Assembly (NCBI GenBank): GCA_963674595.2
Contig: CAXXFV010000016.1
Location: 672,001 to 736,000, forward strand
Origin: a bacterium
GTDB lineage: Bacteria > Zhuqueibacterota > Zhuqueibacteria > Residuimicrobiales > Krinioviventaceae
Reading direction: 5' to 3'
DNA length: 64,000 nucleotides
Made by a program: the position numbers and the translations under genes. Shown here in pieces: positions 33,408 through 47,030 of the stretch. The notes below the pieces were generated by a model. The model worked only from the letters and a program-made list of their open reading frames with translations. It did not search any database and was not told the DNA's origin. How positions within the stretch are numbered: position 1 is the stretch's first letter; the number at the start of each line of letters is the position of its first letter.

Positions 33408-35543
33408 TTAATATACAAGCTTTTCTGCCCAGGGCTTAAACTCGTCTAAAATATTCTCCGTTGTAATTATTTCAAACTGTTTATTTGTGGATTTTGCCAG
33501 TGCATAAATATTTTCTTGCACTTGCGGCGTTAACACATTTTTTTCTGCATCCAGGGGATTGATGATTAGTGTCGGTATTTTGAATGTTGATATTATTTCC
33601 GGCAGATCATAATATTTTAATACGTTGGGTAAAAAAGCTTCCTGTGACCAGGTATAGTTTTCCGATGTTGCCAGAGATTCGAATGTCGCCAGACTGTTGA
33701 TCGTAAAGACCCCGGCAATTTTGTCATCCAGCGCTGCAATGTGTTGTGCAACAACACCTCCCAAGCCGTAACCTCCGACGATAATTTTGTTTGTATCAAT
33801 TTCTGTTCTGGTACGAAGATAGGCCAAACTTGCCAGTCCGTCCCGGATACGCATGGCTAATGTATGGTCACCCATGCCGGCAGAAACATAGGAAAGCCAT
33901 CTGCTGCTGTGTGCCCAGGAGGCAATATCATAGGGCATGTCTGCTGCTTTGGTGTCGCCCCAGCCTCGCAAATCAACTGTAAATACGGATGCCCGTTCCT
34001 GGTCTCTTTTTAAAAAGTGTGCCGGTTCAGACAGCAATGTCTGTTTCCTGAGATCAGTCCAGCGGCCGCGATCGTCAAAGTAGAGGATGGCACCCTTTTT
34101 TTCATCCTGCAAAATCGGATACATAAAAGTACATGGAAGCTCAATGTCTTTTTCCGGGTATAATGTCAATTCTTCCAGATTATGCACCCAAACCTGAGTC
34201 GGTTCGTTTTGTTGTGCTGGTGGAGCTGTTGGCAAGTTTTTACATTCAATGGTCTTTTTTATTTTTTGTTGAATGTTTCGGGTATTTCTGTTATTCTTAA
34301 ATTCTAAGGCCAATACTTTATTTAAACTAAAGATATTGCCATCCAATCCAGGATAACAGAAAAGCATGCTGTCCGGCAGCATTTTGAACTGGTCCGGTTG
34401 AATTTTTGGTAGTTTTCGATCAGGATCTTTTCTGACCCATTTGTCCATCCATTTTGTAAACTTTAATGCCATTGGGATTGTATAGGCGTGTCCCGATGTA
34501 TCTGCAAAATATGAAAATTTGTCATCAATACCGGCCTGTTTAAAAGACTTGTGAACATCATTTGATATTTCGAGACTGTATTCCAGTTTAAAAACTTCAT
34601 CTTTTTCGCCAAACATAAACAGGACAGGTGTTGGAATGGCTGCACATAAAAGGTCGATATTGTCCACACCATTTTTAAAACGGCCATATAACAGCGTTTC
34701 CGTGCAGGGAGCATAAGTATTTCGGATCGGATGATGAGCAGAGGGCAGTGCACAACAGGAGGGACCGGAAGCTGTAATACGGTCGTCCAGCAGTGTTGCA
34801 TACATGGTTGTTGCGCCTCCACCGCTGACGCCTGTCATACCAAATCCATTACTTGTGTCGATATCGGGACGGCTTTCCAGGTAGTCCATACAGCGAATAG
34901 CGTCCATAATAAAATAACGATTTGAAGATGTACCTGTTAAATAACATCGAACCCCATCCGTAAAATGATCATTGCCGCCTTGTTTTTCTCCGGCCATACC
35001 CGGCGGATCAAAAATTACGGCCACATAGCCCAAAGAGGCAAATACCTGTGCCGGTATTTGATAGTTTTTCCGTGTTTTTGAACTATGCCCGACCGGCACA
35101 ACAATGGCCTGCCAGGGCGGGGGATATTTTTCTTTATCGGGCAGAAATACCGATGCGTTTACGTCCCAACCCGGGTAGGATTCGAATAATACATTTTCAA
35201 TTGTGCAATGTTTCAGTTTATGACGAGAAACCAGCCTGACATTGAGTGGTGCACCGTTTTCGCCAAAAGGCATTTCACCCATTTGGTCCTTGATCGTATT
35301 TTTAATATGGTTTTGCCAGCTTTGCCAATCATTTTTTTCAAATGCCTGCATACGTTGAAAAGCGCCTACATCCAAATAGTTGCAGGTTCGGTTAACAATA
35401 TAGGACCGCATCATCATGCGCAAATCCTGAGATGGATTCACCGGCCCAAGCTGAAAAGGAATTTGAGAATAACGCCATTCAATTTCTCCTGCAAAAAGCG
35501 TTATGTGAAATAAAAGGATAAAGAGGGACAAAAAACGTCGCAT
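33408..35543 (-). CDS. Secreted tandem alpha/beta-hydrolase (acetylxylan-esterase-like)
   Basis: Signal peptide. Module 1: VPVGH, D.IR..DYL.SRPD.D, TGVSGGG nucleophile. Module 2: D.RGWG, GGYGLGG. Confidence 0.8.
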   Translation of the reverse strand: MRRFLSLFILLFHITLFAGEIEWRYSQIPFQLGPVNPSQDLRMMMRSYIVNRTCNYLDVGAFQRMQAFEKNDWQSWQNHIKNTIKDQMGEMPFGENGAPLNVRLVSRHKLKHCTIENVLFESYPGWDVNASVFLPDKEKYPPPWQAIVVPVGHSSKTRKNYQIPAQVFASLGYVAVIFDPPGMAGEKQGGNDHFTDGVRCYLTGTSSNRYFIMDAIRCMDYLESRPDIDTSNGFGMTGVSGGGATTMYATLLDDRITASGPSCCALPSAHHPIRNTYAPCTETLLYGRFKNGVDNIDLLCAAIPTPVLFMFGEKDEVFKLEYSLEISNDVHKSFKQAGIDDKFSYFADTSGHAYTIPMALKFTKWMDKWVRKDPDRKLPKIQPDQFKMLPDSMLFCYPGLDGNIFSLNKVLALEFKNNRNTRNIQQKIKKTIECKNLPTAPPAQQNEPTQVWVHNLEELTLYPEKDIELPCTFMYPILQDEKKGAILYFDDRGRWTDLRKQTLLSEPAHFLKRDQERASVFTVDLRGWGDTKAADMPYDIASWAHSSRWLSYVSAGMGDHTLAMRIRDGLASLAYLRTRTEIDTNKIIVGGYGLGGVVAQHIAALDDKIAGVFTINSLATFESLATSENYTWSQEAFLPNVLKYYDLPEIISTFKIPTLIINPLDAEKNVLTPQVQENIYALAKSTNKQFEIITTENILDEFKPWAEKLVY

Positions 35544-35580
35544 GTTTTGTTTCTCCGTATGGTTAGGGATTTTGGGTCGT

Positions 35581-36441
35581 TTATGGTTTTTTTTGATTAT
35601 ATTTATTCATCACAATAAAATCCCCCTGTTTTGCTCCAATACCGTCACCAATAACCTGACATTTAACCGTCAACATGAAATAGATACTTATACCCGCATC
35701 GAACAAGCCTTCGAGATTGCCTTGCCCTTTGGCGATAATGACATCGGCTTTTTCGAATGCTGCCAAGAGTTTTTTTGACGAGGGCGGCCAGATGACGCCT
35801 GGTGAATCTTCCTCTGTTGTAATAACTTGCGCAAATTTATCCATGCCTACGGCTAAAGCTTCTTCCATTGTTGCATCGTTTATTGTGGGCGCCCCTCTGA
35901 CGACAAATGTTACATTCGGGTGGTTAATATGCTCTATAAAAAGTTTATCCAAAACAATCTCACCACAGTTATCTCCAATATAAAGTATGGAATTCGCTTT
36001 CTCAATATCTTTTTCAAGCTGCTCAGAGTGATCAATGGCTATTTGTGATTCAAGAACCCGTTTTATTGTTTCGAAAATGTCCATTTGATGCTGCGGACCA
36101 AAATCAATAACATTGCCGGCAATGGCTAATCTCATGGCTGTTTGAAACGGATGGTCGGAAGTTTTGACCATTTCCTGGAATTTTGGATAAAGAGCCAGCA
36201 TTTCTTGATTATTTTTGTGTTTTACTTCTTTATATGGATCGGGATTTTTAATAATTTCCCGGATGAGGCGGTGCATATCCCGGCCCATGGCTGGTGGCGA
36301 CTGGTGATAATCTGCCTGTGATAGATATTCCAAAAGTTTACGTGCACCGATTTCCTGGATGTCTGACGAAATTATTCCCGATTGGGCAAGCTTCAGATAA
36401 CTGGATATGATGCAGGGTAAACAGTTTAAAGATACATCCAT
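35581..36441 (-). CDS. DUF89/ARMT1-like damage-control phosphatase
   Basis: CLPC, AIAGNVIDFG, DNCGEI..D, P.INDAT, KGQGN.E, VKC. Confidence 0.9.
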   Translation of the reverse strand: MDVSLNCLPCIISSYLKLAQSGIISSDIQEIGARKLLEYLSQADYHQSPPAMGRDMHRLIREIIKNPDPYKEVKHKNNQEMLALYPKFQEMVKTSDHPFQTAMRLAIAGNVIDFGPQHQMDIFETIKRVLESQIAIDHSEQLEKDIEKANSILYIGDNCGEIVLDKLFIEHINHPNVTFVVRGAPTINDATMEEALAVGMDKFAQVITTEEDSPGVIWPPSSKKLLAAFEKADVIIAKGQGNLEGLFDAGISIYFMLTVKCQVIGDGIGAKQGDFIVMNKYNQKKP

Positions 36442-36603
36442 GCAATACTCCTTTAATGAATTATATTTAAAAGTGAAATTTATATTTGATAATATTTGTA
36501 TAAAAATTTATAAATACCAAAAAATATTGTTATATTAATAAAAAAGATTAACTTTCGCAACAGGTTCAGGCTTGCAGTTGGGAATTGAAAGGTAGAGTTG
36601 TAA

Positions 36604-37578
36604 ATGTTGTTTAAAATAAAAAGTTTATTGTTTTTTATCGTGTTACCTGTTTTGAGCATTGCCGGTGAAAAAGCGGTAAAAGAGGCGGATGATTATTTTA
36701 CTATTCAGCTTCCGGATTCCATAAATAGTATTCGAATTTTACAAATTACCGATACACATTTGGGAAAAGACGGATTCTGGAAGCAGGATTTAACCACATT
36801 TAAACGGATTAAAAGATTAGTGGAAATGTATGATCCGCATTTATTGGCTCTAACCGGTGATATATTAACAGGCGGAAAAAAGGACCCACATATATTATCT
36901 GCCTTTATGATAAATTTTTTTGATTCGCTTAAACGACCCTGGCTTTTTGTTTTTGGAAATCATGATCCTGAAGGAGGTTTTAAAAGAGACTCTATCGCTC
37001 AATTTATTGATTTTTCAGAATGGGGTGTTTTAGGTTCTCATAAAACAGGTGTTGGTAATGAAATAAAGTATGATTATGTGGTGAATTTAATAAGTAAGGG
37101 AAACAAACCTGCCTGGCAAATTTATGCGTTTGATTCCGGTTCGGAAAAAGAATTCAAATCTATCAAAGACGATCAACTGGATTGGTACCGAAAAAAATCA
37201 AAAGAAACGGAAACAAAATATGCTCAAATAGTACCGGCTATTTCAATTTTTCATATTCCGCTAAAACAATATCAGGATTTGTGGAACGACGGTTCCATTC
37301 CAAAATCAGGTGAAAGCCGGGAAAAAGTATGTTTTGAACAAGATGACGGCAGGGTCTATGATGCTTTTGTTAAGGTCGGGAATATTAAAGCCACTTTTTG
37401 CGGGCATGATCATTATAATAATTACTGGGGAACATATAAAGGCGGCATTATTCTGGCCTATGGTTATATAAGCGGAGAAGCCACAAACTGGGCCTGGCCG
37501 ACAGGTGGAAAACTTGTTCAACTATCTTATAAAAATCAGAATATAAAAATTGAAAATGTGGTTCCAAAGTTTGAATAA
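36604..37578 (+). CDS. Secreted calcineurin-like metallophosphoesterase (Dcr2/PAP29-like)
   Basis: QITDTH, TGD, FGNHD, FHIP, CGHDH.N, and an N-terminal signal peptide. Confidence 0.88.
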   Translation: MLFKIKSLLFFIVLPVLSIAGEKAVKEADDYFTIQLPDSINSIRILQITDTHLGKDGFWKQDLTTFKRIKRLVEMYDPHLLALTGDILTGGKKDPHILSAFMINFFDSLKRPWLFVFGNHDPEGGFKRDSIAQFIDFSEWGVLGSHKTGVGNEIKYDYVVNLISKGNKPAWQIYAFDSGSEKEFKSIKDDQLDWYRKKSKETETKYAQIVPAISIFHIPLKQYQDLWNDGSIPKSGESREKVCFEQDDGRVYDAFVKVGNIKATFCGHDHYNNYWGTYKGGIILAYGYISGEATNWAWPTGGKLVQLSYKNQNIKIENVVPKFE

Positions 37579-37614
37579 AAATTGTAGGAGTTAATTTTAA
37601 AAAGGTCTTAGAAA

Positions 37615-39768
37615 ATGAAGGTTGCTATTATTTATAACAAAGATGTTACCAGAGTTATAAATCAGTTTGGGATGCAGAATAAAGAATTTTATAATCCTAA
37701 AACAGTGCGAATGGTTTCGAACTCTTTAGAGACAGGTGGACATAATGTAGAAATCATAGACGGCAATATGCATGTGATTGAAGCCCTGCAAAATTTTATG
37801 CCCAAGGTGCTTGAAGGTGAACGCATGGGAATGGTTTTTAATATGGCCTATGGAATTCAGGGTGAAAGCCGTTATACGCATATCCCTTCCATGCTGGAAA
37901 TGCTGGGAATTCCTTATGTCGGTTCTACTCCTGCCGGACATGCTTTGGCATTGGATAAAATTATTACAAAAATTATCATGCAAAAACATGGCATTCCGAC
38001 GCCAAATTTTTGGGTCTTTAATTCTCATAATGATGATATGAGTGATGTCATTTATCCTGTTATTATCAAACCAAAAATGGAAGCGGTTTCTTTCGGATTG
38101 CGGGTTGTTCATACTGAAGCAGATTTAAAAGAGGGGGTTGAATTTATTATCAATGAATTTCAACAGCAGGCGCTTGTGGAGCAATTTATTCCCGGACGGG
38201 AATTTGCAATTGGGCTGTTGGGCAATAATCCTGTTGAAGCTTTTCCTGTTTTGGAAATTGACCTTGAAGATGATCCCAACGCAATTCAAACGTTGGACGA
38301 TAAAAAGAAAAAGCCCAGGGCCAAGATTTGTCCTGCTAACCTGTCAAAAGAACTGGCATCGGAAATGGTAAAATTGAGTATTGCGGCTTTCAAGGCCCTT
38401 GGTTTAAGAGATTTTTCCCGTGTTGATATCCGGATGGATGAACATCATAATATCTATTTGCTGGAAATTAATTCCATGGCCAGTTTAGGGCCTAGCGGGT
38501 CCTATCCCTATGCTGCTAAAGTGGCGGGTTATGATTATTCCGCACTTGTAAATAAAATGCTTGATGTGGCGGCTGTTCGTTATTTTGCCAATTCTTCGTT
38601 GTTAAACGGCGATGTAAAAACAAAAGGAATTCCAATACATGTTCGTGTTCGCGGATTTTTAAGAAGCCGGCAATCTTCTATTGAAGAAATTCTGAAAAAA
38701 ATGGTAAACACCAATACATTTTTTCGAAATTCAGAAGGTGTAAATACGGTTGGGAATTTTATCAAAAAAGAATTGAGCCAACTGGGTTTTTCATTTCAAA
38801 GCTTTCCGCAAATTGAAATGGGAAATATTCTTTATTTTAGCAACTCGGATGATGAGCAAATTGATGTTTTGCTGCTTGGCAATCTGGATAATGACACGCC
38901 TGTTTACAAGCACGAATATTACCGTGAAATGGACCAAAAAATATTCGGCAGTGGTGTTTGGGAACACAAGGGGGGGATTGTCGTTATGCTGGCGGCGCTT
39001 CAGGCATTACGTTTTGTGAAAAAGCTCAGGGATCAGAAAATCGGTATTTTGCTGACGACTGATGATACTCAACAGGGACGATTTTCCCGTTCTTTAATAT
39101 TAAGGGTGGCATCCCATGCAAAGTTTATTTTAGGATTACATGGAGCTTTTTTAAACGGAGGATTGGTTACATCACGGTCCGGTGCGGCTGTTTACAACTG
39201 CTCAATGAATTTGGTTAATACGGACAAGGCAGAAAACGTTTCTCTGGCAACAAGTTTTTTTTCACGGCTCATCAATACCTGGATTGACTTGAGTGACGCA
39301 AAAAGTGGTTTGCTTATTTCAAGCCATAAAATGCAGATGAATTCCAATATTACCGAACCCTTTGCGCATGGTGAGGTTACACTTTCCGTTCGTTTTAATG
39401 ATTTGGAACAGATGATGGTAGTAGATAAAAAGATCAAAGAATTACTTTTAAAAAGAAAACATAAAAATTTAATTGATTTCCATTTGGAAGGAGGTATCCG
39501 ACGTCCTTCGATGCTTAAAAATGAAAATGTTGAAAAATTGTGGCATTTGATCAAAAGGCTGGCCGATAAACTTGATATTCAGTTAAGGGAGGAACATCGA
39601 TGGAGTTCGGCGGATATAGCATTTATAGAAAATAATAAAAACAAAATTGATGGTTTTGGTCCGATCGGAATAAAACCGGCAAACAAGTCCGAGTATATTT
39701 TACGTTTTAGTATATTGGAACGTGCGGCACTGTTGGCAATGACAATTTTAGAATTGAAAGAAAAATAA
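37615..39768 (+). CDS. D-Ala-D-Ala-ligase-like ATP-grasp domain fused to a degenerate M20 (carboxypeptidase G2-like) domain
   Basis: N-half: VFN.A.G, LG.PYVGS, LALDK..TK, IIKP..E..S.G, LVEQFI.GRE, SRVDIR, LLEINS. C-half: M20 fold motifs LLGNLD, GSGVWEHKGG, LLTTDD, SSAD, DG.GP.G, SEYI. Confidence 0.82.
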   Translation: MKVAIIYNKDVTRVINQFGMQNKEFYNPKTVRMVSNSLETGGHNVEIIDGNMHVIEALQNFMPKVLEGERMGMVFNMAYGIQGESRYTHIPSMLEMLGIPYVGSTPAGHALALDKIITKIIMQKHGIPTPNFWVFNSHNDDMSDVIYPVIIKPKMEAVSFGLRVVHTEADLKEGVEFIINEFQQQALVEQFIPGREFAIGLLGNNPVEAFPVLEIDLEDDPNAIQTLDDKKKKPRAKICPANLSKELASEMVKLSIAAFKALGLRDFSRVDIRMDEHHNIYLLEINSMASLGPSGSYPYAAKVAGYDYSALVNKMLDVAAVRYFANSSLLNGDVKTKGIPIHVRVRGFLRSRQSSIEEILKKMVNTNTFFRNSEGVNTVGNFIKKELSQLGFSFQSFPQIEMGNILYFSNSDDEQIDVLLLGNLDNDTPVYKHEYYREMDQKIFGSGVWEHKGGIVVMLAALQALRFVKKLRDQKIGILLTTDDTQQGRFSRSLILRVASHAKFILGLHGAFLNGGLVTSRSGAAVYNCSMNLVNTDKAENVSLATSFFSRLINTWIDLSDAKSGLLISSHKMQMNSNITEPFAHGEVTLSVRFNDLEQMMVVDKKIKELLLKRKHKNLIDFHLEGGIRRPSMLKNENVEKLWHLIKRLADKLDIQLREEHRWSSADIAFIENNKNKIDGFGPIGIKPANKSEYILRFSILERAALLAMTILELKEK

Positions 39769-39806
39769 GGCTTGTTGAAATTAATTATCTAAAATTCGGT
39801 TAAAGT

Positions 39807-41444
39807 ATGAAAAATATTTTACGTCAAGTTGAATCACGATTTAGACCAACATCCGATGGTAAATGTTCGGAATCGAAAAATGGTATGATTGCCACCCAGT
39901 CTTCCTATGCGACGGAAGCGGGTGCGGAAATTTTGAAAAAGAATGGAAATGCTGTTGATGCCGCTGTTGCCGCAGCTTTGGCCCTGGGTGTTAGCGAACC
40001 TCAGGCAAGCGGTTTGGGCGGACAAACCATGTTGTTGCTTTATAACAATGAAAACGTTATTGCTGTTGACGGTTCATCCCGTGCACCATCTCTGGCCCAT
40101 GTTAGTTCTGTTTATAAACAGGACCGGTCTCTGGGTTATCGAGCCACAACCGTACCCAGTACTTTGGCGACGTTATGGTATGTTCATGATCGTTATGGCC
40201 TGTTGCCCTGGGCACAATTGTGTGAACCCGCCCTGGCTTTGGCAAAAAACGGGTTTAAAATCAGTACCTTGCAGAACCGTTTGTTGAAACGTGAAATAGA
40301 AAATTTTAATAAAATTGAATCCAGGACCGGGCTCGAATATTTTTATAACAACGGCAAGCCTTATAACGTCGGCGATATTTTTAAACAGGATGATTTGTAT
40401 CGTCTGCTAAAAAAAATTAAAGATAAAGGTGTGTGGGAATTTTATCAGGGTAAAACAGCGCGTCAGATCGATGCGGATATGAGGGAAAACGGCGGTCTGC
40501 TTAGGATGGATGATCTGGCCCTGATCCCGTTTCCCATTGAACGGGAACCGTTGGTTAAATCTTTTCGGGATTTAGATGTATATACAATGCCGCCTCCCGG
40601 TTCGGGCAGAACATTGCTTTTCGTCCTTCTCATGCTTGACCTTATACCGGACACTCTTGAATTAAAAGACCCGTCTGTCAGGACACACATTTTTATACAA
40701 ATTTTACGCAAGGCCTTTCTTGAACGTTCCGACCGGCCCTATGACGCCAATTTTTTTCATCAAATCGCCGATGAAGCAGATATGCTGGATTCTCTTTTTG
40801 CCGGTGAATGTCTTACGGATATTTTAAATGATGTGGATAAAACTATTTTACCCACGCTTCCGTCCCTGGATGAAATAAAAGGGGAGACGACTCATTTATC
40901 CGTTATTGATAAAAAAGGTATGGCTGTTAGTTTAACACAATCCATTGAAAGAGTTTATGGCAGCAAAGCGGCGGCTTCGGGCCTTGGATTTTTGTATAAC
41001 AATTATTTATATGATTATGAATACAATCTTCCCAATCATCCTTTTTACCTGAGACCCAATGCTGTTCCCTGGGCAACAGTTGCGCCGTCTTTAGTGTTTG
41101 ATCAGGATAATTTATGGATGGCCCTTGGCAGCCCGGGCAGCGAACGGATCATTTCAACATTATCATTGTTTTTGCAGCATATTATTGATGACCGGTATTC
41201 TCTGGCAGAAGCTATGATGGCGCCGCGTATTCATTGTTCATTAGGCGGACGTGTCAGCCTTGAGGCCGGCCGGTTTCCTGAACAATTACTGTCTTACCTT
41301 CGGGATAAGGATTTTCGCCTGGATGAACGAGAGGATTTTGCTTTTTATCTTGGGTGTGTGCAGGCTGTTTTGCGAAAACATGATCATTCCGGATTTCAGG
41401 GAGTGGCTGACATCCGGAGAGACGGAACGGCTGCCGGAATTTAA
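39807..41444 (+). CDS. ggt: Gamma-glutamyltransferase family Ntn hydrolase, cytoplasmic
   Basis: A..AG..IL..NGNAVDAAVAA..ALGV.EP..SGLGG, FY.G..A, PPP.SG, ETTHLSVID..G.AVS.T (Thr nucleophile), GSPG, APR.H, AD.RR.G. No signal peptide. Confidence 0.9.
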   Translation: MKNILRQVESRFRPTSDGKCSESKNGMIATQSSYATEAGAEILKKNGNAVDAAVAAALALGVSEPQASGLGGQTMLLLYNNENVIAVDGSSRAPSLAHVSSVYKQDRSLGYRATTVPSTLATLWYVHDRYGLLPWAQLCEPALALAKNGFKISTLQNRLLKREIENFNKIESRTGLEYFYNNGKPYNVGDIFKQDDLYRLLKKIKDKGVWEFYQGKTARQIDADMRENGGLLRMDDLALIPFPIEREPLVKSFRDLDVYTMPPPGSGRTLLFVLLMLDLIPDTLELKDPSVRTHIFIQILRKAFLERSDRPYDANFFHQIADEADMLDSLFAGECLTDILNDVDKTILPTLPSLDEIKGETTHLSVIDKKGMAVSLTQSIERVYGSKAAASGLGFLYNNYLYDYEYNLPNHPFYLRPNAVPWATVAPSLVFDQDNLWMALGSPGSERIISTLSLFLQHIIDDRYSLAEAMMAPRIHCSLGGRVSLEAGRFPEQLLSYLRDKDFRLDEREDFAFYLGCVQAVLRKHDHSGFQGVADIRRDGTAAGI

Positions 41445-41454
41445 GGAAGGCAAC

Positions 41455-42225
41455 ATGACGAAAACTTTACCTTTTCTTGTTTCCATACCGCATGGCGGGA
41501 CAGTTATTCCTCCTGAATTTAAAGACCGGATGGCCTTAACAGAACGTGATTTATTTGATGATTCCGATGTCTTTTCAGATGAAATTTATAACGTTCAGGG
41601 ATTGGTTAAACATACTGTTCGTTTTTCCTTTGCCCGTGCATTTATTGATGTCAGCCGGCCTGTTGATGAGCGCCCGCCGCAGTACACAGATGGTGTTATT
41701 AAAAGTCATACCTGCTATCATGTTCCGGTTTATAAAAAAGACATGCAGCCTAATAGCCGGGAACAGGAAATGCTGATCCGGGAATATTATAACCCATATC
41801 ATGCAGAATTACAAAAAACCATTAAAATGCCGGGGATTAAAATAGCGTTGGATTGCCATACCATGCATGCGGTAGGACCGGCTGTTTCGCCGGATTCCGG
41901 AACCCCAAGACCCATAATTAATTTGGGCAATCTTGACGGGGCAGCTTCAGACATGACTTTGATAAGAAAACTGGCGTCTGCTTTTTGTAATGTTTTTCAA
42001 CTGGATGATCGGGATGTCTCTTTAAACAAGCCGTTTAAGGGCGGTTATATTACCCGACGTTATGGAGGGAAACCCCTTCCCTGGATCCAGATTGAATTGA
42101 ATAAAAGTTTGTATCTCGCATCACCCTGGTTCGACAAACCTTCGCTATCAATGGATACGTCCCGATTGACCGAGTTGAACCGGCTTTTTAGCAATGTCCT
42201 TTATCAATTTAGTCAAATGATTTAA
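41455..42225 (+). CDS. N-formylglutamate amidohydrolase family protein
   Basis: LVSIPHGG, D.D, RAFIDV.R, YY.PYH, LDCHTM, NLGN, N.PFKGGYIT..YG, IQIELN. ATG at 41455 after AAGGAAGG. Confidence 0.88.
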   Translation: MTKTLPFLVSIPHGGTVIPPEFKDRMALTERDLFDDSDVFSDEIYNVQGLVKHTVRFSFARAFIDVSRPVDERPPQYTDGVIKSHTCYHVPVYKKDMQPNSREQEMLIREYYNPYHAELQKTIKMPGIKIALDCHTMHAVGPAVSPDSGTPRPIINLGNLDGAASDMTLIRKLASAFCNVFQLDDRDVSLNKPFKGGYITRRYGGKPLPWIQIELNKSLYLASPWFDKPSLSMDTSRLTELNRLFSNVLYQFSQMI

Positions 42226-42295
42226 ATCTCTCATTCAGCATTCCACGGGGATCATTAATATCTGTTGTTTTATATTCTGTTTAAAATTTGTACCT

Positions 42296-42323
42296 TTGAC
42301 AAATTGGTTTTTATTAATAAACT
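42296..42323 (+). promoter_or_regulatory. Putative sigma70-type promoter for the thuA cluster
   Basis: TTGACA, 16-bp spacer, TAAACT, about 40 bp before the thuA ATG. Confidence 0.5.
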
Positions 42324-42362
42324 GTTCTTGGAATGATAACAACTGCGCGACAGGAGAAATAT

Positions 42363-43097
42363 ATGAAAGATTTCATTCAGGTAACCGTATGGAATGAATT
42401 TTTACATGAAAAAACCAATGATGCTGTTGCAAAAATTTATCCCCAGGGTATTCATAGGGCAATAGCTGAATTTTTAATCAAGACTTCCAATATTAAAACC
42501 CGTACAGCCACACTCGACCAGCCGGAACACGGATTGTCTCAGGCCGTCCTGGAAGATACGGATGTGCTGATCTGGTGGGGCCATAAAGCCCATGATCAGG
42601 TAGATGATAATGTTGTTGAAAATGTCAAAAAACGGGTCCTGGAGGGCATGGGGCTGATCGTTTTGCATTCGGGCCATTATTCCAAAATATTCAAATCACT
42701 TTTGGGGACGAATTGCTCTTTAAAATGGCGGGAAGCGGCTGAAAGACAACGGTTATGGAACCTTGAACCGGCACATCCGATTACTTTGGGAATTGGTGAA
42801 TATATTGAATTACCTCATGCTGAAATGTATGGGGAACGGTTTGACATCCCGACACCGGATAAGCTTGTTTTTATTTCATGGTTTGAGGGAGGGGAAGTAT
42901 TCCGAAGCGGATGCTGCTGGGAACGGGGCCACGGCAGGATTTTTTATTTCCAGCCTGGTCATGAAACCTATCCGATTTATCATAATCCTGAAATTCAACA
43001 TGTTATTACAAATGCCGTATTGTGGGCGGCCCCCCGTAAAAAGATAAAAGATGTATGTCCGAACGTTCCACCCATTGAACCGTTAAACCGGTCCTGA
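42363..43097 (+). CDS. thuA: ThuA (trehalose utilization) family protein
   Basis: [74 protein letters not shown] at 42363 after AGGAG. Confidence 0.93.
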
Positions 43098-43117
43098 TTT
43101 TAACTGGATCGGTTAAA

Positions 43118-44467
43118 TTGAATAAAGGAGTTGTATTGCAAGAGGAAACCCGAAGAGAATTTTTAAAAAATACAAAAAATTGTCTGTCTTTACTGGCTTT
43201 TCCATATATTGTTTCTGCCAAAGAAGGACCAACAAAGACCATATCTCATAATTTTAAACTGGTATCAAAAACTGTTTTTATGCCGGCTCCGGCCCAGAAC
43301 GTGGGGGTTCATGCGGCAAGCTGTTATACAGACCGTAAAAAAAATGACCTGATCAGTATTCATTCGCATACATCCAAAAGCGATTTAAATGATGCCGCAT
43401 TTTTTCGTTTTTCGTCGGATAATGGTCAAACCTGGAGCGAGGCTGCCCGGTGGTATACAAAATTTGAACATCCCAACGGTACAGGACGGCGTTATCCCCG
43501 GGCCGGTATTGTTGATCCGAATACCAATAAATTTATCCTTTTTTATAATAAAGCTGTGTTGCCGAATGATGATCCTTTGGAAGGGATGCAGCAGTTGAAA
43601 ATTCATTACACTATTTTAAATGAAAAGTATCAGTTCGAACCGGGGCAGCAGATAATCCATCGGGGCGTTGATTTTGATGAAATTCATCCTTTCCCGGATA
43701 TTTATATCGGCCGGAATTGTTACATGCTTGGAGATTATACCCAAGCGCCTTTATTTCTTCCGGATGGAACATTATTACTGCCGGTACAGTCAACACCGCT
43801 GGTTGACGATAAATATTTTAATCCCGGCGGCGGCATGACCTATACGGATTGTATGCTATTAATGGGGCGATGGAATTCTGAAAATCAACTGGAATGGACC
43901 TGCTCCGAGAGGATCAAAGGAAATCCGGCTGAAACAACACGGGGTTTGATTGAACCAACCATTGCATTATTGGCTGATCAATCTTTACTTATGGTTATGC
44001 GCGGTAGTAACGATGTGAATCCCGAGTTACCCGGTTATAAATGGTATGCCCGGTCTTTTGACGGAGGCCATACCTGGACAAAAGCACAGCCCTGGACCTA
44101 TTCTACAGGTGAAAATTTTTATTCGCCCAGTTCCTGTTCTCAGCTTTTACCTCATTCAAATAAAAAATTATATTGGATCGGGAATATTACACCGGATAAT
44201 CCTATTGGACATCATCCCCGGTTTCCGCTTGTTATAGGAGAGGTGGATCTTGAAAGCGGATTGTTAATTAAGGATTCTGTTTTTGTCATTGATGATAAAC
44301 AAATAAATGAAAGTGATTTTTTGTTCCTTTCCAATTTTTATGCACGTGAAGACAGAGAGACCGGAGATATCGTGCTGCATTTGAGCCGCCTGTTTGCAAA
44401 TGATTTTAGAAATAATGATAAAATTGACTGGACGGCCGATGCTTTGTTGTATCGAACACGTGTTTAA
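43118..44467 (+). CDS. Sialidase-like BNR/Asp-box beta-propeller protein with possible Tat signal
   Basis: TRREFLK near the N-terminus, Asp boxes SSDNGQTW and SFDGGHTW, EP...L...L.MVMR, SPSS, HPR.PL. Confidence 0.75.
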   Translation: MNKGVVLQEETRREFLKNTKNCLSLLAFPYIVSAKEGPTKTISHNFKLVSKTVFMPAPAQNVGVHAASCYTDRKKNDLISIHSHTSKSDLNDAAFFRFSSDNGQTWSEAARWYTKFEHPNGTGRRYPRAGIVDPNTNKFILFYNKAVLPNDDPLEGMQQLKIHYTILNEKYQFEPGQQIIHRGVDFDEIHPFPDIYIGRNCYMLGDYTQAPLFLPDGTLLLPVQSTPLVDDKYFNPGGGMTYTDCMLLMGRWNSENQLEWTCSERIKGNPAETTRGLIEPTIALLADQSLLMVMRGSNDVNPELPGYKWYARSFDGGHTWTKAQPWTYSTGENFYSPSSCSQLLPHSNKKLYWIGNITPDNPIGHHPRFPLVIGEVDLESGLLIKDSVFVIDDKQINESDFLFLSNFYAREDRETGDIVLHLSRLFANDFRNNDKIDWTADALLYRTRV

Positions 44468-44612
44468 CAAAGCTTTTATTTAATTAAAATGAGGAAAATT
44501 TTTTTATAGTCATTTGATTGTGTAAAAAAATGTAACCAAAAAATTAATCCCTTGTTTTCACTAAAATTTGTATTACATTGACGTTTTGTTTGAAGAGCAA
44601 GGAGAAGGCAAT

Positions 44613-47030
44613 TTGTTAGTCGACCTTTTAACCTTAAATGAACTTGAACCCCCAATGGGGGACCTTGGTGTGAAACCTCAATTTTCTTTTTGCCGTTCTT
44701 TTTGGACAAAGCCTATTGACGGTGAAAACGACGCACCGGAAAATCGCATTATTCATGTTCGCAATTTGCAAATGCATGATAATGTAAAAATTAAAAAACT
44801 TGGAATCCGCCGGGGAAAGGGATTTCATATTTGCGGCAGTCATCAGGACCTGGATTGGGTCGAATCATTACGCCTTTGGATTTGGCAGGAAAACGGTTGG
44901 AAATGCTGTTTTAGCAAACAGGACATTGCCAAAACCGATGAAAATACTGTTCAATGGTTTGAATTTGATGATCTTCTAACCAATACCGTTATATTGGAAA
45001 TTCGAAAAAGCGGTATTGATGGATATTGGCCGTCCTGGAACCTGGCCATGTCTGCTTTTATTTTACAAGGGGAAGCACCATCGCCGCCGGCACCTAGGGA
45101 TGAAAAAAATCTTGTTTGCAGTCAAATTTCAATGGATGATTTGCCGGATGGTTTTAAGGCTCAGATATTTGACGGACAAGTTCGTTATTTAACATCTCAG
45201 CTTGAGGTTGGATTTTACCTGAATCGTACCGGTTTTTCACATCTGGGGATCGATCATGATGGCGAACACCGTACAAATATCAATCTTTTAAAAATTCAAC
45301 CCGGACTCTTTTTTCAGGGCGTTCAACTTAATCCTGTCGGCCAACAACCGGTCGCCGGCATCTCTCTTCGTTACGATGTAACGGGAACGACCTCGGTTAT
45401 AAATAATCACGTTTTATATGAAATAAATGTCGGCGATAAAATACAATATAAAATGGATTGGCAAGTTTTATCGGACCGGTTATTATTGGATGTTGAACGG
45501 CATGCGGATGCTGATATACGTTGCTGGACCGGAAGCGTTTGGATGATCGGATTTGAAAGCCGGGCTGCCTCTACCCAGATGATCGGAAAAATTACAAAAG
45601 ATGGACAGACCGGTGGTTTGACTGTTCCTTCACTTATGCATGTGCCTAATTTCGGGACATTGAAAATTGAATCAGATAGTCCTGATGTTTTCCTCAGGTC
45701 CGATGCCCTTCGTCCCCAGGATATGAGCACACTGGAAATTAAACTCGGTGAAATTCCGCAGCCTGAAGGCGACTATATACTGCAAAAAGGTACCTTTAAG
45801 GCACGAATCGAGTTTTCTTTGGTAAAACCGGATATATCTTTACGGAAAGATACACCGGCTATTGTTCGTCGTGCGGTTGAAAAAACAACCTTTACAGCGT
45901 TGACCTATCGACCGGACACTGCTACTTTAAGCAATAATAGCATTTCCCTTCACTGTCCGATCTGTATGGATATGTGGTCGGCCAACACCACACGAATCGG
46001 TAAACTGTTGCCGGATTTAACGGCGAATGATTTGTTAAAAACGTCACTGGAACGATGGCTGGACGGGGGACAGGGTTATACCAGCGGACGTTTAATGCAG
46101 GATGGGATTGTTCATGCTGCCGAAGATGAGTATTTGATGACCGGCGCGGCCTGTTTTTTAGGACTGGCTGATTATTTGGAATCGTGTGGTACAGAGACCT
46201 GGGTGGACCATTATACCCAGGCCATTGAAAAACAATTGCAGCTTTTAAAAGCTAGAGATATTGATAACGATGGTTTAATTGAAAGTATATATCGCACCGG
46301 TACCAACGGGACCGGTCAATGGAGCACATGCTGGTGGGACGTTATCTCCTTTGGCTGGAAGGACGCTTTTTCCAATGCTGTTTTATATGCTGCTTTGGTA
46401 AAGTTGTCGGCTCAATTAAAACGATTTGGTAAGGATTCTTTATATGCCGGACTTGATGACTGGGCATTAAAATTAAATTCAAATTATTTTAAAACCTTTT
46501 ACAATCCGGATACAGGCTGGCTGGCAGGCTGGAGATGTAAGGACGACAAGCTCCATGATCATGCTTTTTTATTTGTTAACGGTGCGGCCGTCAGTTACGG
46601 ACTTGTTGAGGCCAAACCGGCCCTTGAGATTATGCAGCGTCTCTGGAATGAATTTGAGCGGGTGGGTGTTCCTGATGCTCAATATGGTTTGCCGGGTAAT
46701 TTATGGCATATTCCTGACCACGATCTTGCCGATATTATGCAGGGGTATCCCTTGGGATTTTATCAAAACGGTGGTCGGACCACATCTCAGTCCCGTCATT
46801 TTATCAATGGACTTTATACCGTGGGAATGGATGTGCAGGCTGATGAGTTGGTAAAACAAATCAGCAAGGGGCTGGCAGAGGGACTGGTTTTTGGCGGCGC
46901 AAAAAGCGGTGTTGACTGGCGATATTGGGATGACCGGCCAAGCGGATATGAAGGTCTGCTGACCGATCAATTTGGGGTTTTAGCTACAATTCTCGAACGA
47001 TATAAAACAGAAATGGAAATAAAAAAATGA
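44613..47030 (+). CDS. Large cytoplasmic protein with a C-terminal (alpha/alpha)6 glycoside-hydrolase-like domain
   Basis: D.DNDGLIE, WWD..SFGWKDAFSNA..Y.AL, FYNP.TG..AGW, NGAAV, YQNGG resemble six-hairpin GHs. TTG start at 44613 after GGAG (ORF track begins at 44568). Confidence 0.6.
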   Translation: MLVDLLTLNELEPPMGDLGVKPQFSFCRSFWTKPIDGENDAPENRIIHVRNLQMHDNVKIKKLGIRRGKGFHICGSHQDLDWVESLRLWIWQENGWKCCFSKQDIAKTDENTVQWFEFDDLLTNTVILEIRKSGIDGYWPSWNLAMSAFILQGEAPSPPAPRDEKNLVCSQISMDDLPDGFKAQIFDGQVRYLTSQLEVGFYLNRTGFSHLGIDHDGEHRTNINLLKIQPGLFFQGVQLNPVGQQPVAGISLRYDVTGTTSVINNHVLYEINVGDKIQYKMDWQVLSDRLLLDVERHADADIRCWTGSVWMIGFESRAASTQMIGKITKDGQTGGLTVPSLMHVPNFGTLKIESDSPDVFLRSDALRPQDMSTLEIKLGEIPQPEGDYILQKGTFKARIEFSLVKPDISLRKDTPAIVRRAVEKTTFTALTYRPDTATLSNNSISLHCPICMDMWSANTTRIGKLLPDLTANDLLKTSLERWLDGGQGYTSGRLMQDGIVHAAEDEYLMTGAACFLGLADYLESCGTETWVDHYTQAIEKQLQLLKARDIDNDGLIESIYRTGTNGTGQWSTCWWDVISFGWKDAFSNAVLYAALVKLSAQLKRFGKDSLYAGLDDWALKLNSNYFKTFYNPDTGWLAGWRCKDDKLHDHAFLFVNGAAVSYGLVEAKPALEIMQRLWNEFERVGVPDAQYGLPGNLWHIPDHDLADIMQGYPLGFYQNGGRTTSQSRHFINGLYTVGMDVQADELVKQISKGLAEGLVFGGAKSGVDWRYWDDRPSGYEGLLTDQFGVLATILERYKTEMEIKK

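What the first reader, a model, noticed from the sequence alone, without database searches (positions are those of the whole stretch)
37615..42225. Candidate undescribed amide/peptide metabolite system: ATP-grasp-M20 fusion + cytoplasmic GGT + N-formylglutamate amidohydrolase
Seen: three co-directional genes with 38-bp and 10-bp gaps, none with a signal peptide. Established: Ddl-like ATP-grasp enzymes form amide bonds, GGT-family Ntn hydrolases transfer or hydrolyse gamma-acyl groups, and FGase (HutG-type) removes N-acyl groups from glutamate. No hutH/U/I/F, cell-wall genes or glutathione synthesis genes are in the window, so none of the textbook roles is supported by context. Inference: a self-contained build/transfer/deacylate pathway for a small glutamyl-type peptide or amide (osmolyte, storage compound or protein tag), analogous to ligase+peptidase operons such as the NAGGN osmolyte system.
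Basis: partly seen in the sequence, partly recalled or inferred. Interest (0 to 1): 0.78.

Follow-up and report, generated by a model that had tools for sequence, protein, structure and literature searches.

The report
Orphan ligase-GGT-amidohydrolase gene trio
Three tightly packed genes encode an ATP-driven amide-bond ligase fused to a dead peptidase domain plus two amide-cleaving enzymes: a conserved but unstudied unit that probably makes and recycles a small glutamine-like compound linked to salt balance.

Summary
Three co-directional genes lie at 37615-39768, 39807-41444 and 41455-42225, with gaps of 38 and 10 bp and no N-terminal hydrophobic segment. They encode a Ddl-like ATP-grasp fused to an M20-like domain (FUS), a GGT-family protein and an FGase-family protein.

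The synteny test passes. In 151 genomes of the phylum, FUS occurs in 15. The special GGT occurs in 13, all of them FUS genomes, and always next to FUS. FGase follows the GGT in 11 of those 13.

The textbook roles fail:
- The genome has a canonical Ddl elsewhere.
- Urocanase is in 32 of 41 relatives but FGase in only 5.
- All five M20 metal ligands are replaced, so that domain is a dead peptidase.

New here: in other lineages, mostly marine Bacteroidota, the GGT(+FGase) is replaced by a small TrpG/GuaA-like glutamine amidotransferase. Of 93 FUS copies, 53 had the amidotransferase, 24 the GGT, 0 both and 16 neither. MscS channels lie within three genes in 37 of 129 copies, though none lies in this window.

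Best reading (about 0.45): a cytoplasmic module that makes and turns over a small glutamine/glutamate-derived amide tied to osmotic balance. The substrate is unknown. The scan has met this module before on other DNA (five earlier notes).

The parts
37615..38640 (+). FUS, N-terminal Ddl-like ATP-grasp ligase domain (about residues 1-340)
   Evidence: PF07478, E 8.7e-33. It is 29% identical to E. coli DdlB, and hhalign gives probability 99.6. K144, E180, E187, K215, R255, D257, E270 and N272 of DdlB are matched by K152, E189, E196, K230, R269, D271, E284 and N286. H63, S150, Y216, S281 and L282 are replaced by Y79, V158, K231, G295 and S296. This is the most conserved part of the protein across 162 homologues.
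38647..39768 (+). FUS, C-terminal M20-like domain with all metal ligands replaced (a dead peptidase domain)
   Evidence: PF01546 at 25.1 bits against a cut-off of 24.6. Carboxypeptidase G2 (1cg2) matches at E 9.4e-10. Alignment with eight stand-alone M20 relatives that keep the GH(L/M)DTV, GPGVxDMKGG, NSDEE, EPAR and final-His motifs shows N, H, D-T, H and N at those places in the window protein. The same places are degenerate in all 162 family members.
39807..41444 (+). Cytoplasmic GGT-family Ntn hydrolase of a FUS-specific subfamily
   Evidence: PF01019, E 3.7e-108. TIGR00066 scores 325.2 against a cut-off of 357.85. It is 30% identical to E. coli GGT. The nucleophile T391 is matched by T361 and D433 is kept. 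R114, N411, Q430, S462, S463 and G484 are replaced by S, E, Y, A, T and S. This signature is invariant or nearly so in 27 FUS-adjacent GGTs. There is no signal peptide.
41455..42225 (+). FGase-family (PF05013) amidohydrolase
   Evidence: PF05013, E 1.8e-48. TIGR02017 hutG scores 94.2 against a cut-off of 278.75. Its only solved relative is 2q7s, E 3.3e-07, with the family motifs aligned. The motifs are invariant in 16 copies that lie beside GGT-FUS. It is the only PF05013 gene in the genome.

Best explanation
The trio is a dedicated cytoplasmic module that makes and processes a small glutamine/glutamate-derived amide, most likely a compatible solute or nitrogen-rich osmotic-balance metabolite.

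Step 1 (inferred from conserved catalytic residues): the ATP-grasp half of FUS activates a carboxylate as an acyl phosphate and joins it to an amine. Its D-alanine-specific residues are replaced, so the substrates are not D-Ala + D-Ala.

Step 2 (shown: the ligands are lost; the role is inferred): the fused M20-like half cannot hydrolyse. It descends from glutamate-carboxypeptidase-like enzymes. It probably serves as a binding, regulatory or scaffold domain for an X-Glu-type ligand.

Step 3 (shown: intact Thr nucleophile, altered pocket, strict co-occurrence; the role is inferred): the GGT cleaves a gamma-glutamyl amide bond of the compound or its precursor. The substrate's alpha-carboxyl is probably not free.

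Step 4 (inferred): the FGase removes an N-acyl group from the glutamate/glutamine moiety.

In other lineages one small class I glutamine amidotransferase replaces GGT(+FGase). The essential partner activity is therefore cleavage of a glutamine-type gamma-amide.
For: Dedicated unit:
- In 151 genomes of the phylum, FUS is in 15.
- The FUS-type GGT is in 13 of the 151. All 13 are FUS genomes and the GGT is next to FUS by coordinates. The query gave no match at E <= 1e-120 in the 136 genomes without FUS.
- FGase lies next to that GGT in 11 of the 13, in five families (loci checked).
- Spacing is tight. FUS stop to GGT start is -11 to +5 nt in 23 of 27 loci, and GGT stop to FGase start is -1 to +10 nt in 10 of 12.

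Interchangeable partner:
- Of 93 FUS copies with both flanks visible, 53 lie by a GATase1, 24 by a GGT, 0 by both and 16 by neither.
- GATase1-linked subclades are nested inside the GGT-linked clade. The GGT label needs at least 5 changes on the tree.
- Among five genomes of the family, four have GGT+FGase by FUS and no close copy of that GATase1 (best matches 26-32% identical). G009 (96% complete) has the GATase1 by FUS and no match to the GGT or FGase queries.
- The GATase1 keeps its Cys-His-Glu triad. It resembles GuaA-N, TrpG and CPSase small subunits.

Ligase is active but not Ddl.

Dead M20. Its nearest live relatives score best on the 'glutamate carboxypeptidase' and 'hydrolase PRK07338' models.

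Osmotic link:
- MscS lies within three genes of FUS in 37 of 129 copies, or 17 of 59 clusters at 80% identity. G000 itself has only 5 MscS-family genes in 6.6 Mb.
- A cation-chloride cotransporter, a TrkA_C protein, CorA, HSP20 and a glycosyltransferase-HAD pair occur nearby in several lineages.
- Named hosts are mostly marine genera.

Precedent: the osmotically induced NAGGN operon also combines a ligase, a glutamine amidotransferase and a metallopeptidase (PMC8070244, abstract and passages read).
Against: - No product, substrate or activity is known for any member.
- In this window no MscS or other osmotic gene lies beside the trio. The osmotic link therefore rests on other genomes.
- 16 of 93 FUS copies have neither partner nearby.
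- FGase is missing after the GGT in 8 of 25 loci with room for it.
- One genome, G107 (78% complete), has a 59%-identical GATase1 with no FUS found.
- One synthetic and two hydrolytic enzymes in one operon would run a futile cycle unless regulated, and nothing here shows regulation.
Confidence: 0.45

Rival explanations
1. True glutamine-dependent amidotransferase. The GGT here, and the GATase1 elsewhere, is the glutaminase subunit. It hands ammonia to the acyl phosphate formed by the ATP-grasp, so the product is a carboxamide such as an amino-acid or dipeptide amide. The FGase would be an accessory.
For: - The alternative partner is a minimal 191-aa class I GATase. Its best matches are amidotransferase subunits: GMP synthase subunit A at 117.9 bits, then TrpG/PabA and the CPSase small subunit.
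- Its stop overlaps the FUS start in L055, and GGT starts overlap FUS stops in many loci, as expected for subunits.
- ATP-grasp plus GATase1 is the architecture of carbamoyl-phosphate synthetase (established knowledge).
- NAGGN synthesis uses an amidotransferase (PMC8070244).
Against: - No GGT-family protein is known to me to act as an amidotransferase subunit (recalled).
- The residues that hold the alpha-carboxylate of free glutamine or a gamma-glutamyl donor in E. coli GGT (R114, S462, S463; roles recalled) are replaced in all or nearly all of the 27 FUS-linked GGTs.
- Only 1 of 23 FUS columns that differ between GGT-type and Bacteroidota GATase1-type copies follows the partner in the nested GATase1 subclades, and that change is A/S. 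14 follow phylogeny. So there is no sign of a partner-specific interface.
- The FGase is left unexplained.
- Complex prediction could not be run.
Confidence: 0.25
2. Mainly catabolic or salvage unit. GGT and FGase break down an imported or stored gamma-glutamyl or N-acyl-glutamate compound. The ligase re-uses a fragment.
For: - Two of the three enzymes are hydrolases from glutamate-releasing families.
- The dead M20 descends from glutamate-carboxypeptidase-like enzymes.
- G002, L061 and L063 carry a second GGT paralogue just upstream of FUS.
Against: - No transporter is a constant neighbour.
- The most conserved component is the ATP-consuming ligase. It is 52-76% identical to the window's protein (best aligned segment) in the loci sampled.
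- The GATase1 form has no second hydrolase.
Confidence: 0.1
3. Peptide tagging or amino-carrier system, in the manner of RimK or LysX/LysK. The ligase would extend the acidic C-terminus of a protein and the hydrolases would remove the tag.
For: - ATP-grasp with M20 recalls LysX/LysK (recalled).
- In 13 loci, Bacteroidota records and metagenome contigs of the same layout, a 105-122-aa protein lies between the polyamine genes and the GATase1. Only one member was read: it is acidic, has an acidic C-terminal tail and has no Pfam family.
Against: - That small protein is absent from the window and from the GGT-type loci.
- The ligase is Ddl-like, not RimK-like.
- The M20 domain is dead.
Confidence: 0.05
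4. Textbook roles: D-Ala-D-Ala synthesis for the cell wall, glutathione turnover, and the last step of histidine degradation.
For: Best family names are Ddl, GGT and HutG-type FGase. The genome has hutU-hutI, and the window's FGase is its only PF05013 gene.
Against: - All three score below the NCBIfam cut-offs.
- A canonical Ddl lies elsewhere in all five genomes tested.
- The D-Ala-specific residues are replaced.
- Urocanase is in 32 of 41 relatives but FGase in 5 of 41. Four of those FGases sit by FUS-GGT and the fifth is fused to another ATP-grasp.
- The GGT has no signal peptide and an altered pocket.
Confidence: 0.03

Closest known systems
D-alanine--D-alanine ligase / VanA family (ATP-grasp; PDB 3se7, 1e4e, 2dln and 1iov)
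   Same: The fold and the ATP/Mg/phosphoryl-transfer residues are the same. PDB hits reach E 6.3e-28. Identity to E. coli DdlB is 29%.
   Different: - It scores below every Ddl/Van cut-off.
- The substrate residues S150, Y216, S281, L282 and H63 are replaced, and the replacements V158, S296 and Y79 are invariant or nearly so in the family.
- It is permanently fused to an M20-like domain.
- The genome has its own canonical Ddl.
Carboxypeptidase G2 / glutamate-carboxypeptidase-like M20 enzymes (PDB 1cg2)
   Same: The catalytic and dimerisation domain layout is recognisable. The nearest live relatives score best on NCBIfam PRK06133 'glutamate carboxypeptidase' or PRK07338 'hydrolase'.
   Different: All five metal ligands and the general base are replaced, so no metallopeptidase chemistry is expected.
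NAGGN osmolyte operon (AsnO amidotransferase, Ngg acetyltransferase-ligase, PA3461 glutamyl aminopeptidase)
   Same: It combines a ligase, a glutamine-amide-handling enzyme and a metallopeptidase-type protein in one osmotic-stress operon that uses glutamine units (PMC8070244, abstract and passages read).
   Different: - The proteins are not homologous. The Ngg model TIGR03103 finds nothing over its cut-off in G000 and does not hit FUS.
- There is no GNAT domain in the trio.
- The peptidase-like part is dead and fused.
- GGT and FGase have no counterpart in the NAGGN operon.
Class I glutamine amidotransferase-synthetase pairs, such as carbamoyl-phosphate synthetase (ATP-grasp large subunit + GATase1 small subunit)
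   Same: In other lineages FUS is paired with, and translationally coupled to, a small TrpG/GuaA-like GATase1.
   Different: In this window the partner is a GGT-family Ntn hydrolase, which has no known amidotransferase role (recalled). No complex could be tested.
ATP-grasp amidoligase + FGase neighbourhoods (Iyer, Abhiman, Burroughs and Aravind 2009, Mol Biosyst; recalled only, paper not held)
   Same: The general logic is an amidoligase coupled to an FGase-type amidohydrolase. It was seen here independently as a GSH-S/RimK-like ATP-grasp fused to FGase in G004 (L140:3416-5494).
   Different: I could not check whether that paper describes this particular Ddl-like-M20 fusion with GGT. My full-text searches found no description of it.

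Membership tests
D-alanine--D-alanine ligase (EC 6.3.2.4) | ATP-grasp catalytic residues for ATP, Mg and acyl-phosphate chemistry | tested here: met
   K152, E189, E196, K230, R269, D271, E284 and N286 align with DdlB K144, E180, E187, K215, R255, D257, E270 and N272. The residue roles are recalled.
D-alanine--D-alanine ligase (EC 6.3.2.4) | Score above the curated Ddl family cut-offs | tested here: not met
   NF002378 scores 171.4 against 243, and TIGR01205 scores 153.1 against 245.65. The whole-genome search gives 155.4 bits, marked as not over the cut-off.
D-alanine--D-alanine ligase (EC 6.3.2.4) | D-Ala-binding residues (DdlB S150, Y216, S281, L282; E15 network) | tested here: not met
   These are replaced by V158, K231, G295 and S296. 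The E15 equivalent could not be aligned.
D-alanine--D-alanine ligase (EC 6.3.2.4) | Being the cell's source of D-Ala-D-Ala | tested here: not met
   A canonical Ddl over the cut-off (336-344 bits) is present in all 5 of 5 genomes tested, including G000 at C15:87770-88873. 35 of 41 relatives lack a full-length FUS.
M20 metallopeptidase | Recognisable M20 catalytic + dimerisation domain | tested here: met
   PF01546 scores 25.1 bits (cut-off 24.6). 1cg2 matches at E 9.4e-10. The domain aligns over its full length with stand-alone M20 proteins.
M20 metallopeptidase | Two-metal site (His, Asp, Glu, Glu/Asp, His) and general-base Glu | tested here: not met
   The window has N, H, T (with D at the general-base place), H and N at those places. 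Eight stand-alone relatives keep the motifs. Four of these places (His, Asp, general-base Glu, ligand Glu) were tabulated in 162 homologues: the ligand Asp and ligand Glu are never kept, and the other two are kept in few (His 27 of 162, general-base Glu 9 of 162).
Gamma-glutamyltransferase (EC 2.3.2.2 / 3.4.19.13) | Full-length GGT domain with the Thr nucleophile | tested here: met
   PF01019 covers residues 41-540. T361 aligns with E. coli T391, and this Thr is invariant in 27 of 27 FUS-adjacent copies.
Gamma-glutamyltransferase (EC 2.3.2.2 / 3.4.19.13) | Curated equivalog score | tested here: not met
   TIGR00066 scores 325.2 against 357.85, and NF007187 scores 208.7 against 990.
Gamma-glutamyltransferase (EC 2.3.2.2 / 3.4.19.13) | Pocket for a free gamma-glutamyl moiety (E. 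coli R114, N411, Q430, D433, S462, S463) | tested here: not met
   Only D433 is kept. The others are S (with an Arg two places later), E, Y, A and T, in 24-27 of 27 copies. The residue roles are recalled.
Gamma-glutamyltransferase (EC 2.3.2.2 / 3.4.19.13) | Export signal (periplasmic or secreted enzyme) | tested here: not met
   There is no hydrophobic N-terminus. The five N-termini printed (window, L001, L052, L053, L063) are hydrophilic.
HutG N-formylglutamate amidohydrolase | FGase fold and family motifs | tested here: met
   PF05013 scores 166 bits. The motifs align with 2q7s and are invariant in 16 copies.
HutG N-formylglutamate amidohydrolase | Curated hutG score | tested here: not met
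   TIGR02017 scores 94.2 against 278.75.
HutG N-formylglutamate amidohydrolase | Hut operon context and co-occurrence with hutU | tested here: not met
   hutU-hutI lie on contig C8 with no FGase beside them. Urocanase is in 32 of 41 relatives and FGase in 5 of 41. I did not search for HutF.
NAGGN synthesis system | Ngg (GNAT + ligase, TIGR03103) | tested here: not met
   No match over the cut-off in G000, and FUS is not hit.
NAGGN synthesis system | AsnO-type amidotransferase and M42 peptidase | not tested
   I did not search for TIGR03104 or TIGR03106. The names of these models are recalled.
Glutamine amidotransferase complex (synthetase + glutaminase subunit) | Physical complex and ammonia transfer | not testable with these tools
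   Complex prediction never accepted the job. The partner-tracking residue test found 1 of 23 columns.

The most novel reading that the evidence does not exclude
The cytoplasmic GGT-family protein is the nitrogen-handling partner of an ATP-grasp amidoligase. Together with FUS it makes an amidated, glutamine-type solute of the NAGGN or N-carbamoyl-glutamine-amide kind. The dead M20 domain would sense or present the glutamate-type ligand. This would be a previously unknown and widespread compatible-solute pathway of marine sediment bacteria and archaea, and the first GGT-family member working inside a biosynthetic ligase system.
Probability: 0.15. Interest if true: 0.85.

Novelty: new variant of a known kind. 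Interest (0 to 1): 0.62.

Why it matters
The fusion protein is common. One search gave 1866 hits at E <= 0.001 among 7999 scored candidates. In one search, 446 of 548 matched stretches in metagenome contigs encoded a relative. The dead-M20 part alone defines 39 clusters at 50% identity with E <= 1e-30.

It is strongly conserved across phyla, yet source names call it only 'D-alanine-D-alanine ligase', 'ATP-grasp' or 'M20 hydrolase'.

If the module makes a compatible solute, it would fill a gap in how many uncultured marine sediment lineages balance salt. It would also add a nitrogen-rich metabolite to marine budgets. Three further points follow:
- A GGT-family enzyme and a class I amidotransferase would be shown to substitute for each other.
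- A peptidase domain would be shown recycled as a non-catalytic part of a ligase.
- A systematic mis-annotation as a cell-wall or vancomycin-resistance-type ligase would be corrected.

Tried and rejected
- Complex prediction (FUS + GATase1, alignments A3 + A2). The queue was full, and the tool was declared unavailable. No result exists.
- Structure prediction of FUS (alignment A1). The job was accepted and failed remotely. There is no model, so no fold search was run.
- RNA evidence. No RNA holder was listed among 6 runs that hold the stretch.
- Literature. Full-text searches for the trio and for ATP-grasp/M20/osmolyte combinations found nothing on this module. Iyer et al. 2009 is not held. 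PMC2922099 has none of the searched terms. PMC13625781 (the SpeY pathway) has no occurrence of 'ATP-grasp' or 'osmo'.
- Promoter and terminator scan of 35400-43200. Promoter-like sites numbered 34 against 23.1 +/- 3.7 in shuffles. Terminator-like sites numbered 7 against 8.4. Nothing marks the operon ends, except a promoter-like site at 42296-42323 before the next gene.
- Rfam on 35000-43500: no match.
- Partner-specific residues in FUS: only 1 of 23 candidate columns.
- The Ddl-like paralogue at G000:C23 was first taken for the housekeeping Ddl. It was rejected because it is 21% identical to DdlB, scores 98 bits and lies beside thymidylate kinase. The real Ddl is on C15.
- Search for short proteins with the M20-like part: mostly contig-end fragments. 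One probable true split form (P0133, Fusibacter, 353 aa on a 368-kb contig) turned up. Three stand-alone dead copies appear.
- Upstream metallophosphoesterase (36604-37578, 36 bp before FUS). It is not conserved beside FUS in any other locus, so it is not counted as part of the module.

Full report
**1. What is in the sequence**

The ORF lists and the sequence at the junction give three co-directional genes:
- FUS, 37615-39768 (717 aa).
- A GGT-family gene, 39807-41444 (545 aa).
- An FGase-family gene. Its longest ORF starts at 41251 inside the GGT gene. Its likely start is the ATG at 41455, 10 bp after the GGT stop and just after a GGAAGG stretch. This gives 256 aa.

Pfam finds Dala_Dala_lig_C (E 8.7e-33, residues 121-316) in FUS. 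It also finds a marginal Peptidase_M20 match (25.1 bits, cut-off 24.6, residues 438-711). The second protein has a full-length G_glu_transpept domain (E 3.7e-108) and the third has FGase (E 1.8e-48).

NCBIfam places all three below the curated cut-offs of Ddl/Van, GGT and HutG. None has a hydrophobic N-terminus.

**2. Is the trio a unit?**

The first sample was misleading. A scan of one genome per species returned 39 loci, 38 from Bacteroidota and 1 from a spirochaete. Only the spirochaete had a GGT beside FUS, and none had an FGase.

Among 41 relatives of the window's genome, a full-length FUS occurs in 6. Three of these (G002, G008, G015) keep FUS-GGT-FGase. G009 does not.

A metagenome scan with a profile found 446 relatives, of which 80 loci were kept. 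I called ORFs in 124 loci: the window, 39 named loci, 4 relatives and 80 metagenome loci. I clustered the products and tallied the neighbours of 129 FUS copies:
- Of 99 copies with at least 900 nt downstream, 27 have a GGT directly downstream.
- Of 25 GGT-linked copies with room for a further gene, 17 have an FGase next.
- Of 114 copies with at least 600 nt upstream, 47 have a small GATase1 directly upstream, and 61 have one within two genes.

These loci include near-duplicates. At 80% identity there are 59 clusters, 21 with GGT and 23 with GATase1.

A cleaner test used 151 genomes drawn from the phylum:
- FUS (E <= 1e-100) is in 15.
- The window-type GGT (E <= 1e-120) is in 13. Every one of the 13 is a FUS genome, and by coordinates the GGT lies immediately beside FUS. 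The query gave no match at that threshold in the 136 genomes without FUS.
- An FGase lies next to that GGT in 11 of the 13, spread over five families. Four of these were re-read as loci.
- The two FUS genomes without the GGT are G009 (GATase1 type) and G144. In G144 (82% complete) FUS is cut by a contig end and an FGase sits on another short contig.

Spacing is tight. FUS stop to GGT start is -11 to +5 nt in 23 of 27 loci. GGT stop to FGase start is -1 to +10 nt in 10 of 12.

The trio is therefore a conserved, dedicated module. The window's 38-bp first gap is at the loose end of that range.

**3. The textbook roles**

*D-Ala-D-Ala ligase.* The Ddl model TIGR01205 finds a canonical Ddl over its cut-off in all five genomes tested. 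In G000 it is at C15:87770-88873, at 341.6 bits. FUS scores about 155 bits, below the cut-off.

Against E. coli DdlB (fetched; BLAST, hhalign), the ATP, Mg and phosphoryl-transfer residues are kept. The residues I recall as shaping the D-alanine sites are changed: H63 to Y79, S150 to V158, Y216 to K231, S281 to G295 and L282 to S296. Of the replacements, V158 and Y79 are invariant and S296 nearly so in the family alignment; K231 is not conserved.

*Histidine degradation.* G000 has hutU and hutI side by side on contig C8, with no FGase beside them. Urocanase is in 32 of 41 relatives, but FGase in only 5 of 41. Four of those five are the FUS-GGT genomes. The fifth (G004) has FGase fused to a glutathione-synthetase/RimK-like ATP-grasp. 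I did not search for HutF.

*Glutathione.* The GGT lacks a signal peptide and has an altered pocket (see section 5).

**4. The M20 half is dead**

I aligned the window's C-terminal half with eight stand-alone M20 proteins found by the exhaustive representative search. The eight show the family's motifs, apart from single substitutions in three of them: GH(L/M)DTV, GPGVxDMKGG, NSDEE(I/V)GS, EPAR and a late GxxxH.

The window protein has GNLDND, GSGVWEHKGG, TTDDTQQG, LHGAF and KPAN at those places. All five metal-ligand positions and the general base are therefore replaced.

In 162 family members the first His position reads N, P, H or S. The Asp position reads N, H or Y, and the ligand Glu reads S or T. 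A different set of residues is invariant instead: D425, G445, W449, D483, R521 and G523, with G447, K452, S520 and S522 nearly so.

The live relatives score best on the NCBIfam models 'glutamate carboxypeptidase' or 'hydrolase PRK07338', still under the cut-offs. The domain is almost always fused. Full-length hits carry it at residues of about 336-717. A few stand-alone dead copies exist.

**5. The GGT subfamily**

Against E. coli GGT (fetched), the nucleophile Thr (T391/T361) and D433 are kept. T409 is Ser.

The residues I recall as binding the alpha-carboxylate (R114, S462, S463) are S, A and T, with an Arg two places later. Two of the alpha-amino binders (N411, Q430) are E and Y.

This signature holds in 24-27 of 27 FUS-adjacent GGTs. 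Four other GGT paralogues in the same loci differ at several of these places, though not at all of them.

The enzyme should self-process and cleave a gamma-glutamyl-type amide. Its substrate is probably not free glutamine or glutathione. A blocked alpha-carboxyl would fit, but this is inference.

**6. The partner is interchangeable**

Of 93 FUS copies with both flanks visible, 53 lie by a GATase1, 24 by a GGT, none by both and 16 by neither.

The GATase1 is 191 aa and keeps its Cys-His-Glu triad. It resembles GMP synthase subunit A, TrpG/PabA and the CPSase small subunit. It is below all cut-offs, and its match to Peptidase_C26 is weak. In L055 its stop overlaps the FUS start.

On a FastTree of 111 FUS rows, GATase1-linked subclades (9 rows) lie inside the GGT-linked clade. 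The GGT label needs 6 changes, of which at least 5 are forced by well-supported branches. The shuffled mean is 27.4. Long-branch rows are flagged there and do not bear on this result.

At whole-genome level, G000, G002, G008 and G015 have GGT+FGase by FUS. Their best match to that GATase1 is only 26-32% identical. G009 (96% complete) has the GATase1 by FUS and gives no match to the GGT or FGase queries.

Two unrelated enzymes that both cleave the gamma-amide of a glutamine-type substrate therefore replace each other. This is the main new point.

Results against a simple subunit model:
- Only 1 of 23 FUS columns that separate the two types follows the partner.
- G107 (78% complete) has a 59%-identical GATase1 next to an arylamine N-acetyltransferase, and no FUS was found.

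**7. Context**

An MscS-type channel lies within three genes of FUS in 37 of 129 copies, or 17 of 59 clusters at 80% identity. This holds in both partner types. In G002 the MscS gene lies between FUS and the GGT, and a cation-chloride cotransporter follows the FGase. G000 has only five MscS-family genes in 6.6 Mb, so this is a strong enrichment.

Other recurring neighbours are a TrkA_C protein, CorA, HSP20 and a glycosyltransferase-HAD pair with large MscS genes.

In 22 loci, mostly Bacteroidota records or contigs of the same layout, an arginine decarboxylase, a ureohydrolase and a deoxyhypusine-synthase-like gene lie beside GATase1-FUS. By its Pfam families this set resembles the agmatine-dependent SpeY homospermidine gene clusters described in PMC13625781 (abstract and passages read). 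I did not compare it with those genes.

Named carriers are mostly marine genera or marine candidate phyla.

In this window itself no such gene lies nearby. The flanking genes are a metallophosphoesterase, ThuA and BNR proteins, and they are not conserved beside FUS elsewhere.

**8. Mechanism**

Shown:
- A conserved module.
- An intact ligase core with non-Ddl substrate residues.
- A dead M20 domain.
- A GGT with an intact nucleophile and a changed pocket.
- FGase motifs intact.
- Interchangeability of GGT(+FGase) with a GATase1.
- An osmotic and ion-balance neighbourhood in other genomes.

Inferred: the ligase builds an amide from glutamine/glutamate-type units. The partner cleaves a gamma-glutamyl amide, and the FGase cleaves an N-acyl bond. 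The whole serves a solute pool.

I rate this make-and-process reading at about 0.45. The stricter amidotransferase reading, in which the partner feeds ammonia to the acyl phosphate, rates about 0.25. It fits the GATase1 well, but the altered GGT pocket, the unexplained FGase and the lack of partner-tracking residues count against it. A catabolic reading rates 0.1, protein tagging 0.05 and the textbook roles 0.03.

**9. Comparison and novelty**

The nearest solved relatives are Ddl/VanA and carboxypeptidase G2. The nearest system by logic is the NAGGN operon, with its ligase, amidotransferase and metallopeptidase under osmotic induction (PMC8070244). It is not homologous.

I found no paper on this module. 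Iyer et al. 2009, which I recall as describing ATP-grasp/FGase neighbourhoods, could not be read.

The Atlas and source names give only generic labels.

Earlier notes of this scan describe the same module on five other genomes, with similar readings. I saw them after my own analysis. They are not independent evidence. One gave the lead to the SpeY paper.

I class the finding as a new variant of a known kind, namely ATP-grasp amidoligase operons with amidohydrolase partners.

**10. Limits**

There is no structure model, no complex test and no expression data. Residue roles in DdlB and GGT are recalled. The loci are not independent samples. Metagenome ORFs were called by a simple longest-ORF rule.

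Noticed in passing
L140:3416-5494 (G004:C9): A 692-aa protein fuses a glutathione-synthetase/RimK-like ATP-grasp (PF02955, PF08443) to an FGase domain. This is a second, unrelated ligase-FGase pairing in a relative that lacks FUS.
   Followed up: partly
G029:C1:363639-365449 and similar places in about 20 relatives: Relatives without FUS carry tandem pairs of stand-alone Ddl-like ATP-grasp genes of about 350-365 aa, 28-39% identical to the FUS ligase half. They are distinct from the canonical Ddl. Their function is unknown.
   Followed up: no
L002:6118-6444 and 12 other loci: A 105-122-aa protein lies between the SpeY-like gene and the GATase1. The one member read (L002, 108 aa) is acidic, has an acidic C-terminal tail and has no Pfam family. 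It is reminiscent of amino-carrier or RimK-substrate tails.
   Followed up: no
L002:2857-6084 and 21 other loci: An arginine decarboxylase, a ureohydrolase and a deoxyhypusine-synthase-like (SpeY-type) gene lie next to GATase1-FUS. This resembles the agmatine-dependent homospermidine pathway of PMC13625781.
   Followed up: partly
L062, L075, L106, L117: Two or three FUS-family genes lie in tandem or close together on one contig. Some are very divergent: L075:4338-6350 and L106:6637- sit on a branch of length 3.17.
   Followed up: no
L052:6313-7929; also L061 and L063: A second GGT paralogue lies immediately upstream of FUS, in addition to the FUS-type GGT downstream. The L052 copy is 35% identical to the window's GGT. 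The paralogues in these loci differ from the FUS-type signature at several pocket places.
   Followed up: partly
L141:2626-3198 (G107:C7): A GATase1 59% identical to the FUS-linked type sits beside an arylamine N-acetyltransferase. No FUS was found in that genome, which is 78% complete.
   Followed up: partly
window 15321-16943 (-) and 48796-49800 (+): There are two URO-D-family genes. One is fused to a thioredoxin domain and lies next to a CobW-type GTPase and a ferritin. The other lies among BNR/sortilin-like genes.
   Followed up: no
window 44568-47030 (+): An 820-aa ORF with no Pfam family lies between BNR-repeat and sortilin-like genes.
   Followed up: no
G000:C23:109755-110534 (L137:5525-6544): A third Ddl-like ATP-grasp gene (339 aa) is 21% identical to DdlB and scores 98 bits on TIGR01205. 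It lies next to a thymidylate-kinase-like gene. It is neither the housekeeping Ddl nor FUS.
   Followed up: partly
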